This document shows, in pieces, positions 21,001 through 24,000 of a stretch of DNA of 64,000 nt. The DNA is from a virus (taxonomy: Duplodnaviria > Heunggongvirae > Uroviricota > Caudoviricetes), in IMG/VR virus record IMGVR_UViG_2880395615_000010; one strand, 5' to 3'. Each line of letters begins with the position of its first letter. Within the stretch, counting starts at the first letter, position 1. The position numbers were made by a program.

Positions 21001-24000
21001 GGTTTTTGGCATGGTGATCACCGGCTTGCCATAGACAGATGCGCCTTTTACCGGCAGCACCCGGAAAACACCGTGTTTTTTTGATCTCTGATAAACAATT
21101 TCACCATCGATCCCCCCGGTGTCCCAGCAGACACGGGAAATAGTCATTTCGGTGCCATCCGCATGGCGGTATTTTTTGTTGATCGCCGCATCCACACGTA
21201 ACAGCGTCTCTTCCTCATCAGGACGCCCCATAATGATGATTTTATCCACCAGAAAGGCTTCCTCTCCCGGAGCCCATCCCCAGACATACATCTCAAAACG
21301 GTTTCGCTGCGAGTCAATGCCCGCCGTCAGATAAACCACCCGGGCAGGCACCGCCGCCGTGTAACGCACCACCTTATCCATCAGTACCTGGTGATCGAGT
21401 TTTTCGCCCACGGCCTCTTCCCAGGTCTCGCCCAGCGTGGTGTTCACAAAGGTTTTCAGGCCGTTGGGATCTTTCAGTGCATCCAGCCAGTCATAGACAA
21501 TCTGTACCCAGGTGGTGAACGGACTGTACGCCGTCCAGATATGGAACGTGATGGAGCGCGGCGGCGGAATTTCATCACCCCGGGCGCTGAAAAACGTCAG
21601 ACCGTCACGGGTCCACATGCCCGTGTTTTCACAGATCCACCGCCCGTTGCTCTGGTCCAGTTCAGACTGATGGATCACGCAGCCATGATGTTCACAGAGG
21701 TAGAAAACACTTTCAGGGCTGTCCTTCTCCCATTTAAGCCCAAAAGGCGTGGACTCATCGCCAAATTTCAGATACTGCTCCTCCCCACAGTGCGGGCAGG
21801 GCACATAAAAACGCATAAAATGCGCCGACTCGTTAGCGGCTTTTTCGATCTGGCAGGTGCCTTTGATTTTAGGCGTCGAGCCGCGAATGGATTTTGGCCA
21901 CACCGACCCCTCAATACGCTTATCCCCCAGCAGGGTTGGCGAGCCCTCTTTTTCGACATCCGGCTCGAACGAGGAAAGTTCGTCATAGCAGACCACGTCC
22001 ACGGATTTTTCACGGTAGTTTTTGGCGGCAGCGCCGCCCAGGCACCAGAAACCGACGCCCGATGAAAAGCGTTTCAGCGTGAGAGTATTGTCACGATGTT
22101 TACGCCCCAGCCATGGGGAAAGGTCTTTCAGGCATGGCACGTTCCGAATCGTCGCCTCCACGTGAGACTTCATAAAATCTTCAGCGGCAGAATCCGTGGG
22201 CTGAAAAAGCAGACTGTTTCGGGATTTATGCTCAATAAAATACCCGACCACCCCCAGCAACATCTTTGTATAGCCAACACGGGCAGATTTAATCAGATTA
22301 ACAGTGCGGATCTGATCATTCCCCATGCTGTTCATGATGGCGATCTGGAATGGCAGCGTTTTCCATTCGCCCTCACCATATGAAGATTCTTTAGGCAGAT
22401 AATAATTTTGATCAGCCCATTCAACTGGCGTCACCGGCAATGCCCTTATCAGGGGCTGTAATGCAGTTGTGACAGCGCTCATCATATTATTCAGTTGTTG
22501 CTCTGATATATTCATCAAGTAAATCCGGTAATTTATCCCCTGCCCGCGCACACTGATTTGCCCCCTTAGCAATAAGGGTTTTCAGATGGTCAAGATGGCG
22601 CGGTGTTAAATCAGGAAACTGTCGCTGCATGGATAAAGGGATGGAATCAAGCGTACTGGATAACGCCATTGCCAGCTTACTGAGGGCAAAAATACAGAAC
22701 CCGGTGTCAATCAGTTTTCCTTTTGACACCTCATTTTTTAACTGCTGTGTAACAGCCTGTTCTGCTGTCAGTTCCCATCTGGCAATAAGCAATTTCTCTT
22801 CATAGTCTTCTTCGCTATCGCCATCAGGCACATCGTTTTTACTTCTTCTCAGATACGATATGTAAAAATCGCGCCAGGCATCCAGATCCAGTTGCCCTCG
22901 CTTATTCGAGACCGGGGCACCCGGTAATTTCTGCAATCTGCGAAGCTGGCGATCGGTCAGACTCAAATGCCTGGCAACTTCAGTCTGCGTAGCCACTCCT
23001 CACCTCGCAAAAACTCTTACCTCACAATCAGCACAAAACCGGTCATGTCCGGTTTACATGTCCGTTTTTTGCACATGTCCGGTTCACGGACAGCCTGTTT
23101 TTATATTTTTCATATAGTTAACTTGCAGAGAAACCGGACATGGATCCCGGAAAATTTTCATAAATAGCGAAAACCCGCGAGGTCGCCGCCCCGTAACCTG
23201 TCGGATCGCCGGAAAGGACCCGCAAAATGATAATAATTATCATCTACATATCACAACGTGCATCTACGCCATCAAACCACGTCAAATAATCAATTATGAC
23301 GCAGGTATCGTATTAATTGATCTGCGTCAAATTAACGTAAAAGCAACTTCAGATAATACAAATCAGCAACACTGAATATGGGGAAACATTATGTCATCAA
23401 AGAACAGAACCCGCAGAACAACAACCCGCAACATCCGATTTCCAAACCAGATGATTGAACAAATTAACATCGCTCTTGATCTGAAAGGTTCAGGAAACTT
23501 TTCAGCGTGGGTTATTGAAGCCTGCAGAAGAAGGCTGTCAACAGAGAGTTCGGGTATGAATTACATAATTAAGTAACATGGTGTTCACAGAACACGCAGT
23601 TACCGGACACATCAGTTTTCCATTCGCTCCCCGGCAGTACAGGCTTCCCCTCTGACGGGATAGCCTGAAAAAATAACACAGAAAATTATTTGTTATAATT
23701 AATATAACTTACTCAAAAAAAAAGCGACGAGAAAATCAGCATCAACGAACAATAAGCGCCAATACGTGATAACAAATGGCAGCCATATTTATCTGCAGTA
23801 TAAGCAATGGACAGGATAACCACACCAGAAACCGTCAGCATAAAATCCATTTGAACTTCCCCGGACAAAATCGACTCATCTAAAGATTTACAGCTCTTTT
23901 TATTATCAATATGTTAAAAGTAAAATAAACAGATGTTCAATAACACGAATACAAAAACGTGCTGAAATTCAATGAATCCATTTCTGTGTCATCAATTAAT

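What the first reader, a model, noticed from the sequence alone, without database searches (positions are those of the whole stretch)
23391..23576. Ribbon-helix-helix gene next to cos, opposite to the late operon
Seen: a 61-aa ORF with a basic N-terminus, a short beta-strand (NIRFP) and two helices, typical of Arc/CopG/MetJ-type RHH proteins. It is followed by about 500 bp of very AT-rich DNA lacking long ORFs. Established: RHH proteins are often antitoxins or small repressors. No partner toxin ORF above the track cutoff is visible, so a short toxin or an RNA partner in the AT-rich stretch is possible.
Basis: partly seen in the sequence, partly recalled or inferred. Interest (0 to 1): 0.4.

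Follow-up and report, generated by a model that had tools for sequence, protein, structure and literature searches.

The report
YlcI/YnfO ribbon-helix-helix prophage gene
The 61-codon ORF beside the cos site is a real, strongly conserved and already annotated prophage gene (YlcI/YnfO family, also present but unannotated in phage lambda) that most likely makes a small Arc/CopG-type DNA-binding regulator, not an antitoxin.

The parts
23391..23576 (+). ylcI/ynfO-family gene (61 aa). The RHH core is about residues 12-50 (nt 23424-23540). The tail after residue ~47 is variable.
23380..23385 (+). Shine-Dalgarno-like GGGGAA, 5 nt before the ATG
   Evidence: Read from the sequence. A purine-rich SD is kept in the unrelated upstream context of O157/PPyecE-type prophages (GAGGAAAG).
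23180..23191 (-). cosN cohesive-end sequence (reverse complement of lambda GGGCGGCGACCT)
   Evidence: Sequence. Invariant in the alignment of six prophages with three different cosB/Nu1 types.
23155..23496 (.). Conserved mosaic block: cosN, the cosQ side, 199 bp of upstream DNA and the first ~35 codons of the gene. It is shared with lambda, DLP12 and Qin. It includes the palindrome ATGATAAT-A-ATTATCAT (23227-23243) and the inverted repeats TGACGCAG/CTGCGTCA (23297-23304 / 23322-23329).
   Evidence: Alignments A1 and A5; repeats. The function of the repeats was not tested. No consensus promoter was found on the + strand.
23528..24012 (.). AT-rich (36% GC) presence/absence cassette. It starts inside the gene at about codon 47, supplies the C-terminal tail ...STESSGMNYIIK, and replaces ~68 bp found in S14-type prophages.
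   Evidence: Alignment A4. GC content. The whole 23577-24200 stretch is found at >=80% coverage in 729 E. coli genomes, next to both lambda-type and HNH/TerS-type packaging modules.
23713..23850 (-). 45-codon hydrophobic ORF (MDFMLTVSGVVILSIAYTADKYGCHLLSRIGAYCSLMLIFSSLFF), convergent with the RHH gene. Coding status is unresolved.
   Evidence: Annotated as hypothetical WP_000347012.1 / WP_000347013.1. Only 15 database clusters, all E. coli. One synonymous change against O157 copies, but frameshifted variants exist. No Pfam, PHROG, NCBIfam or PADLOC hit.
23581..23595 (.). Perfect palindrome GTGTTC-ACA-GAACAC, 5 nt after the stop codon. It reads as terminator-like for minus-strand transcripts.
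   Evidence: Function not tested.
24013..24200 (.). GC-rich (58%) conserved spacer between the cassette and Rz, shared by many more prophages than the cassette
22487..22996 (-). Terminase small subunit Nu1, divergent neighbour
   Evidence: PF07471; RefSeq annotation.
24201..24668 (-). Rz spanin (with Rz1 embedded at 24263-24448), convergent neighbour and last gene of the lysis cassette
   Evidence: PF03245 E = 2e-47; annotation.

Best explanation
The ORF is a genuine gene of the YlcI/YnfO (DUF3950) family, the counterpart of E. coli K-12 ylcI (DLP12) and ynfO (Qin) and of an unannotated 64-codon ORF at the right end of phage lambda.

Its product is a ~50-residue ribbon-helix-helix domain with a basic N-terminal arm. 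By analogy with Arc, Mnt and CopG it should dimerise through the N-terminal strand (T12-R13-N14-I15-R16-F17). I15 and F17 would pack into the core. N14 and the invariant R16 would point into the DNA major groove. The NFS cap of helix 2 would contact the phosphate backbone.

It is transcribed from its own promoter against the late operon, in the accessory ('moron') zone between the lysis cassette and the packaging genes. It most likely acts as a stand-alone small transcriptional regulator: an autoregulator and/or regulator of neighbouring accessory genes. It is not an antitoxin.

Shown: gene identity, conservation, position, and fold at the level of a prediction. Inferred: dimerisation, DNA binding, regulatory role. 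Unknown: the operator and the regulated genes.
For: Family membership:
- Pfam, NCBIfam and PHROG hits.
- An identical annotated protein in DEC5B.

Coding and constraint:
- dN/dS is 0.05-0.07 against alleles with dS 0.7 to >2.
- The SD is kept in unrelated upstream contexts.

Fold:
- AF2 gives strand-region/helix/helix at pLDDT 73.
- The Foldseek PDB and BFVD lists are dominated by RHH proteins, though none is significant.
- There is a weak PHROG hit to the HicB RHH part.
- Invariant I15, R16, F37, V41 and near-invariant F17, N36, S38, A39, W40 fit the RHH core and contacts.

Stand-alone regulator:
- In every Escherichia prophage locus examined the gene is the lone opposite-strand gene between Rz/R and Nu1 or HNH-TerS.
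- In cf-PICI/P4-like satellites the homologue is again the lone opposite-strand gene within the int-alpA-primase-capsid-terminase array.
- In those satellites it is preceded by 2-5 copies of a GTG-N6-CAC motif at fixed offsets, about 75-fold enriched over the rest of the loci. This looks like an operator array.

Transcription of ylcI in uninduced K-12 is implied by the ybcW-ylcI convergent overlap seen in >=50% of RNA-seq samples.
Against: - No sequence-level link to any RHH family. Pfam at E<=1 finds only DUF3950. A profile search of PDB sequences finds nothing. hhalign to Arc gives 2.8% probability.
- No promoter reaching consensus thresholds lies upstream on the + strand.
- No motif of 8 nt or more is shared between the two unrelated upstream contexts of nearly identical proteins.
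- The satellite GTG-N6-CAC motif is absent here. No operator is therefore identified for this gene.
- No paper reports any experiment on the family.
Confidence: 0.55

Rival explanations
1. Packaging- or cos-associated DNA-binding factor. The RHH protein would bind near cos or the start of the packaging operon. It might protect the prophage cos from terminases of co-resident phages, or modulate terminase recognition.
For: - The gene is invariably adjacent to the first packaging gene across two unrelated packaging modules: lambda Nu1/cos and HK97-type HNH-TerS.
- The cosN-cosQ-gene 5' block travels as one unit across three cosB/Nu1 types.
- One satellite protein fuses DUF3950 to the N-terminal HTH of a Terminase_2 small subunit, 29.1 bits against a cut-off of 26.1.
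Against: - The gene is on the strand opposite to the late operon, so it is not co-expressed with terminase.
- Distant homologues sit far from any terminase, next to chromosomal genes or beside integrase/primase.
- Adjacency may only reflect the known accessory-gene insertion zone between the lysis genes and cos.
- From my own knowledge, not tested here: minimal cos fragments that lack this ORF package well.
Confidence: 0.12
2. Type II antitoxin whose toxin is lost here. In relatives the toxin would be the same-strand DUF1398 gene (ydfO/ybcV).
For: - In Qin-type prophages ynfO is followed after 58 bp by ydfO on the same strand.
Against: - DUF1398 is absent here and in the O157- and S14-type loci, and is separated by an opposite-strand gene in lambda and DLP12.
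- No partner is conserved in distant homologues.
- The C-terminal tail is hypervariable.
- PADLOC has no hit for either protein.
- YdfO overexpression is reported as protective, not toxic (cited in PMC4077768).
Confidence: 0.08
3. Type-I-like or excludon pair. The 45-codon hydrophobic ORF on the minus strand would be a membrane toxin, or simply a late-expressed small membrane protein. Its mRNA would be countered by the convergent ylcI transcript or by an antisense RNA from the AT-rich cassette.
For: - A short two-segment hydrophobic ORF is annotated by RefSeq.
- The cassette and the RHH gene co-travel between different packaging modules.
- The convergent arrangement leaves a 136-bp gap, and a convergent transcriptional overlap is reported for the analogous ybcW-ylcI pair in K-12.
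Against: - The ORF is restricted to E. coli with almost no diversity, so there is no test of selection.
- Frameshifted variants exist.
- The SD is weak and no promoter reaches threshold.
- There is no Rfam, Pfam or PADLOC match.
- Many prophages have the RHH gene without the cassette.
Confidence: 0.07

Closest known systems
YlcI (DLP12) and YnfO (Qin) of E. coli K-12; Pfam PF13132 DUF3950 / NCBIfam NF041551
   Same: Same family by HMM above the curated cut-offs. About 80-90% identity over residues 1-52. Same position between the lysis cassette and the nohD/nohA (Nu1-like) genes, and the same opposite orientation.
   Different: The C-terminal tail differs (STESSGMNYIIK here). The downstream cargo differs: an AT-rich cassette with a 45-codon ORF here, against ybcW/ybcV/borD or ydfO in K-12. 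The gene here is a mosaic of a lambda-like 5' part and an O157-like 3' part.
Arc and Mnt repressors of phage P22 (immI region); CopG of pMV158: small RHH repressors
   Same: - Size is 45-80 aa, with a basic N-terminal arm.
- The strand motif N-hydrophobic-R-aromatic-P matches (Arc NLRWP, Mnt NFRMP, here NIRFP).
- A glycine turn is followed by an N/S cap on helix 2.
- Arc is among the non-significant Foldseek PDB matches.
- Arc and Mnt are also encoded inside the late region of a temperate phage, in opposing orientations.
   Different: There is no significant sequence similarity. No antirepressor target lies next to it in this window or in lambda. The operator is unknown. The Arc, Mnt and CopG sequences used for comparison were recalled from memory.
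RHH antitoxins (TacA, VapB, ParD, CopA-SO, HicB C-terminal domain)
   Different: There is no co-transcribed toxin, no conserved C-terminal toxin-binding extension, and no conserved partner in relatives.
Lambda bor-type accessory genes ('morons') between the lysis genes and cos
   Same: Same genomic zone and the same orientation against late transcription. The adjacent AT-rich cassette shows deviant GC content and presence/absence polymorphism.
   Different: The RHH gene itself is not sporadic. It is a near-constant fixture of this junction, with its core in 77% of complete E. coli genomes.

Membership tests
YlcI/YnfO family (PF13132 DUF3950; NF041551) | Profile HMM score above the curated cut-off | tested here: met
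   PF13132 scores 67.5 bits against 25. NF041551 scores 35.2 bits against 30. phrog_949 E = 9e-32.
YlcI/YnfO family (PF13132 DUF3950; NF041551) | Conserved IRF(P) and NFSAWV..AC motifs in a 50-80 aa protein | tested here: met
   Alignment A2: I15, R16, F37, V41 are invariant. F17, N36, S38, A39, W40, A44, C45 are at >=90%.
YlcI/YnfO family (PF13132 DUF3950; NF041551) | Prophage position between the lysis cassette and the first packaging gene, on the opposite strand (Escherichia members) | tested here: met
   All Escherichia/Shigella prophage loci examined show it.
Ribbon-helix-helix (Arc/MetJ/CopG) superfamily | N-terminal strand followed by two helices, structurally superposable on RHH proteins | tested here: met
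Ribbon-helix-helix (Arc/MetJ/CopG) superfamily | Significant sequence or profile similarity to an established RHH family | tested here: not met
   Pfam at E<=1 gives only DUF3950. The PDB profile search gives no RHH. hhalign to Arc gives probability 2.8%. The only hint is a PHROG HicB-like hit at E = 0.012.
Ribbon-helix-helix (Arc/MetJ/CopG) superfamily | Obligate dimer forming a two-stranded antiparallel sheet | not testable with these tools
Ribbon-helix-helix (Arc/MetJ/CopG) superfamily | Sequence-specific binding to repeated operator half-sites | tested here: inconclusive
   Satellite homologues have GTG-N6-CAC arrays upstream. None is present here, and the two upstream contexts share no motif. 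Binding itself cannot be tested.
Type II toxin-antitoxin antitoxin | Adjacent co-oriented, co-transcribed toxin gene | tested here: not met
   Only a 25-codon ORF follows on the same strand. DUF1398 follows in some relatives but not here.
Type II toxin-antitoxin antitoxin | Partner gene conserved across homologues; conserved toxin-binding C-terminal region | tested here: not met
   Neighbours differ among prophage, satellite and chromosomal loci. The tails are hypervariable and junction-derived.
Type II toxin-antitoxin antitoxin | Match to known TA or defence models | tested here: not met
   PADLOC gives no hit at E<=0.1.
Type I toxin-antitoxin (small hydrophobic toxin plus antisense RNA) | Short hydrophobic ORF | tested here: met
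   A 45-aa ORF at 23713-23850 (-) with two hydrophobic segments.
Type I toxin-antitoxin (small hydrophobic toxin plus antisense RNA) | Known toxin or RNA family, or evidence of selection on the ORF | tested here: not met
   No Rfam hit and no protein family. The ORF occurs in E. coli only, and frameshifted variants exist.
Type I toxin-antitoxin (small hydrophobic toxin plus antisense RNA) | Overlapping antisense transcript | not testable with these tools
   This needs strand-specific RNA-seq. Only the analogous ybcW-ylcI overlap in K-12 is reported.
Moron-type accessory cassette (for 23528-24012) | Deviant base composition and presence/absence between otherwise collinear phages | tested here: met
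   36% GC against 52%. 485 bp replace 68 bp of S14-type prophages.
Moron-type accessory cassette (for 23528-24012) | Own promoter and terminator | tested here: inconclusive
   There is a terminator-like palindrome at 23581-23595 on the minus strand. Only weak promoter candidates were found.

The most novel reading that the evidence does not exclude
YlcI/YnfO proteins could be a conserved class of 'counter-transcribed' RHH regulators of integrated mobile elements. In both lambdoid prophages and cf-PICI/P4-like satellites the gene is the single opposite-strand gene planted inside the long inducible operon, just upstream of the packaging or replication genes. Expressed in the quiescent state, the protein (plus its convergent transcription) would silence or insulate the downstream packaging genes and cos. 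This would be a second, repressor-independent safety layer present even in phage lambda, with the satellite GTG-N6-CAC arrays as its operators.
Probability: 0.12. Interest if true: 0.6.

Novelty: already known. Interest (0 to 1): 0.22.

Why it matters
As it stands, little is new. The gene is already catalogued (YlcI/YnfO, DUF3950) and its identical protein has a RefSeq accession.

Its modest value is that one of the commonest prophage genes of E. coli has never been studied. Its core is in 77% of complete E. coli genomes, with up to 12 copies per genome. It is under strong purifying selection, and it is present but unannotated in the lambda reference record.

The fold assignment (RHH) and the operator-like arrays next to its satellite homologues give a concrete, cheap experimental entry point: EMSA or ChIP, and deletion in lambda. 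If it turned out to regulate or insulate the packaging end of prophages and satellites, that would add a missing regulator to the best-studied phage.

Tried and rejected
- **Rfam scan of 22500-24700 at E<=1:** only two chance-level hits, to a lncRNA and an archaeal snoRNA. No known sRNA.
- **Sequence searches for an RHH link:** the profile search against PDB sequences and hhalign against Arc gave none.
- **PADLOC** on the RHH protein, the small ORFs, the 329-aa neighbour and YdfO gave nothing.
- **Promoter search:** the consensus scan finds none upstream on the + strand. A relaxed scan gives only weak candidates.
- **Shared operator search:** nearly identical proteins sit behind two unrelated upstream contexts (lambda-cos type and HNH type). 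These share no 8-mer, and the HNH type has no palindrome.
- **Satellite motif GTG-N6-CAC:** not enriched here.
- **Literature:**
  - No functional study of ylcI, ynfO or DUF3950.
  - The lambda ribosome-profiling paper is not held.
  - The EHEC translatome supplements do not list the 45-aa ORF or the family.
- **Pasteurella phage Pmp7 'transcriptional repressor' lead:** the annotated CDS is on the strand opposite to the real DUF3950 ORF and has no Pfam domain.
- **Long antisense ORFs over satellite homologues:** rejected as the main coding frame.
  - The DUF3950 frame has the highest pS/pN.
  - The antisense frame is split in other islands.
- **Upstream conservation as a sign of extra constraint:** the upstream 199 bp looks better conserved than synonymous sites, which I considered evidence of extra constraint. 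I rejected this because the conserved block simply extends into the first ~30 codons. It is a shared mosaic segment.
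Full report
**Observation.** A GGGGAA Shine-Dalgarno-like element sits at 23380-23385.

The surroundings are a lambdoid late region read backwards. These genes lie on the minus strand:
- TerL (20587-22572)
- Nu1 (22487-22996, PF07471)
- Rz (24201-24668, PF03245), with Rz1 embedded
- the R lysozyme (24967-25500)

AGGTCGCCGCCC at 23180-23191 is the reverse complement of the lambda cohesive end. The ORF therefore starts 199 bp from cosN and is divergent from Nu1.

The window is 100% identical over 1.4 kb to a prophage of E. coli O55:H7 DEC5B. RefSeq annotates the ORF there as 'YlcI/YnfO family protein' WP_001329960.1.

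The stretch 23577-24012 is 36% GC against 52% for the window, and 24013-24200 is 58% GC. No ORF above 55 aa lies between the gene and Rz. 'About 500 bp, very AT-rich' is a slight overstatement of 436 bp at 36% GC.

**Is it a real gene?** Yes.
- It matches Pfam DUF3950 (E 9e-19, 67.5 bits, cut-off 25), NCBIfam NF041551 'YlcI/YnfO' (35.2 bits, cut-off 30) and phrog_949, which has no known function.
- Against the lambda, Qin, E. albertii and O157/PPyecE alleles, codons 1-52 give dN/dS of 0.05-0.07, with dS between 0.7 and saturation.
- A purine-rich SD is kept even where the upstream DNA is unrelated.
- The 156-nt core is found in 4183 of 5426 complete E. coli genomes. There are 9558 copies, up to 12 per genome.
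- Phage lambda carries it at complement 48109..48303, 81% identical and also 199 bp from the right end. The RefSeq lambda record has no CDS there.

**Fold.** Sequence methods do not connect the family to any solved or named RHH family.

- TacA2 antitoxin
- E. coli and H. pylori NikR
- the PutA RHH domain
- VapB12
- CopA-SO
- XACb0070
- HP0222

Foldseek against PDB and BFVD gives no significant E-value. Its lists are again mostly NikR, Arc, ParD, MazE9-N, TCP and 'RHH/CopG/NikA' entries.

The conserved positions fit an RHH. I15 and F17 alternate with N14 and the invariant R16 in the strand. A glycine turn is followed by an N-F-S cap on helix 2. The hhalign alignment to Arc puts NIRFP on NLRWP, although its probability is only 2.8%.

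I regard the RHH fold as well supported for a prediction. Dimerisation and DNA binding are inferred from the RHH paradigm, which is established knowledge for Arc, Mnt, CopG and MetJ.

**Context in relatives.** In all Escherichia and Shigella prophage loci examined, the gene is the lone opposite-strand gene between the lysis cassette and the first packaging gene. This holds for two unrelated packaging modules:
- lambda-type cos/Nu1 (this window, lambda, DLP12, Qin, E. albertii)
- HK97-type HNH-TerS-TerL (O157:H7, PPyecE, S14)

What follows the gene varies:
- a same-strand DUF1398 gene directly after it (ynfO-ydfO in Qin, 58-bp gap)
- ybcW, ybcV and bor (lambda, DLP12)
- nothing (S14 type)
- the AT-rich cassette (this window, O157 type)

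Three very different cosB/Nu1 regions share one conserved block. It runs from just beyond cosN through the first ~30 codons of the gene. The window's gene is itself a mosaic: lambda-like up to about codon 35, then O157-like.

**The AT-rich stretch.** Aligning the window with S14-type prophages shows that 23528-24012 (485 bp) replaces about 68 bp. The junction lies inside the gene at about codon 47, right after the conserved ...ACRRRL. That explains why C-terminal tails in the family are hypervariable. It also argues against a functional, toxin-binding tail. The cassette is present at >=80% coverage in 729 E. coli genomes.

The cassette carries a 45-codon ORF on the minus strand (23713-23850), which RefSeq annotates as hypothetical. 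Its product has two hydrophobic segments. The evidence on whether it codes is mixed:
- Homologues exist only in E. coli, in 15 clusters.
- O157 copies differ by one synonymous change and a homopolymer-length change.
- Frameshifted variants are deposited.
- No family, defence or RNA model matches.

Its coding status cannot be decided from sequence. A perfect palindrome, GTGTTC-ACA-GAACAC, lies 5 nt after the RHH stop codon. It is terminator-like for minus-strand transcripts.

**Distant relatives.** Outside Escherichia the family is confined to Enterobacterales, plus a Pasteurella satellite. Many hits in unrelated taxa are lambda DNA contamination.

A large subfamily (MATG..KGIRFPHELI) sits in cf-PICI/P4-like satellites. 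There it is again the only opposite-strand gene within the int-alpA-primase-capsid-portal-HNH-TerS-TerL array.

Upstream of these genes there are 2-5 copies of GTG-N6-CAC at recurring offsets of about -150, -100, -76 and -30. That makes 48 copies in 18 upstream windows, against about 41 in roughly 190 kb of flanking DNA. This looks like an operator array and fits an autoregulated RHH repressor. It could also belong to another protein or to an origin.

The motif is not enriched near the lambda-type genes, including this one. The two unrelated upstream contexts of nearly identical lambda-type proteins share no 8-mer. No operator is therefore identified for the gene in this window.

One satellite protein fuses DUF3950 to the N-terminal HTH of a Terminase_2 small subunit.

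**Mechanism.** The best-supported reading is a stand-alone, dimeric RHH DNA-binding regulator. It would be transcribed against the late operon in the accessory zone at the lysis-packaging junction, with its target unknown (confidence 0.55).

Transcription in a non-induced cell is indirectly supported by the ybcW-ylcI convergent overlap found in most K-12 RNA-seq sets. Neighbouring accessory genes (ybcV, ybcW, ydfO) are known to be expressed and regulated in K-12.

The rivals are:
- a cos- or packaging-associated DNA-binding factor (0.12)
- an antitoxin with a lost or DUF1398 toxin (0.08)
- a type-I-like or excludon pair with the 45-codon ORF (0.07)

**Comparison and novelty.** The gene is a member of the YlcI/YnfO family, and all defining features tested were met. 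It works like Arc, Mnt or CopG-type small repressors. Membership of a named RHH sequence family was tested and not met, so only superfamily-level structural resemblance can be claimed. It is not a demonstrable TA antitoxin.

No publication in the searchable library reports a function. YnfO is listed among uncharacterised y-ome genes.

The finding is therefore already known as an annotated family of unknown function.
- the fold assignment
- the mosaic anatomy
- the lambda homologue missing from the reference annotation
- the operator-like arrays in satellites

Interest is low (0.22). The most novel reading not excluded is a conserved counter-transcribed RHH safety regulator of prophages and satellites (probability about 0.12).

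Noticed in passing
L003 (NC_001416.1) 2710-2904 minus strand = lambda complement 48109..48303: The RefSeq record of phage lambda has no CDS for its 64-codon YlcI/YnfO homologue, 199 bp from the right cohesive end. Some other lambda records call it hypothetical.
   Followed up: yes
L094:7915-7987, L092:4592-4646, L048:5900-5945 and 15 further satellite loci: cf-PICI/P4-like satellites carry 2-5 copies of a 12-bp GTG-N6-CAC motif at fixed offsets (about -150, -100, -76, -30) upstream of their DUF3950 gene. The motif is about 75-fold enriched over the rest of the loci. It is a candidate operator array and is absent from the lambda-type genes.
   Followed up: partly
L092:4714-5103: A 129-aa satellite protein fuses the DUF3950 RHH domain to the first ~50 positions (HTH) of a Terminase_2 small subunit. 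It lies between an AlpA-like gene and a divergent primase operon.
   Followed up: partly
L005 (Pasteurella phage Pmp7) 4435-5109; also L050, L073, L081, L084, L093: An intact DUF3950 ORF lies on the strand opposite to an annotated 224-aa 'transcriptional repressor', and to 250-390-aa ORFs in other satellites. Substitution patterns favour the DUF3950 frame. The antisense ORF is split in related islands, so those long CDS calls are probably wrong at least in part.
   Followed up: partly
L008-L034, L040 (loci from genome contigs): Dozens of assemblies of unrelated organisms contain lambda right-end DNA. Examples are Kitasatospora, Cohnella, Arcanobacterium, Flavobacterium and Candidatus Nanosynbacter. 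Many are ~3.5-kb contigs or 'plasmids'. This is probably sequencing-control or cloning-vector contamination.
   Followed up: no
window 22997-23160 versus L091, L004, L041 (alignment A5): Three entirely different cosB/Nu1-proximal sequences are joined to one and the same cosN-cosQ-ylcI 5' block. The window's cosB side has three CATGTCCGG(T)TT repeats at 23044-23087 and an inverted copy at 23131-23142.
   Followed up: partly
window 23578-23655 (+): A 25-codon ORF (MVFTEHAVTGHISFPFAPRQYRLPL) starts 1 nt after the RHH stop codon, a coupling-like spacing. It lies inside the AT-rich cassette, and its conservation cannot be assessed.
   Followed up: no
window 24013-24200: A GC-rich 188-bp spacer next to Rz is shared by far more E. 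coli prophages than the AT-rich cassette. In some it directly abuts the RHH gene. No function is apparent.
   Followed up: no
window 25543-26532 (-): A 329-aa ORF upstream of the lysozyme gene has no PADLOC hit. RefSeq annotates only its first part as a truncated YdfR-family pseudogene in the identical DEC5B prophage.
   Followed up: no
L091:3257-3958 (Qin), L006, L007, L035-L037, L041: In Qin-type prophages the RHH gene is followed after ~58 bp by a same-strand DUF1398 gene (ynfO-ydfO), a likely two-gene operon. One database protein (P0167) reads as a fusion of the two.
   Followed up: partly
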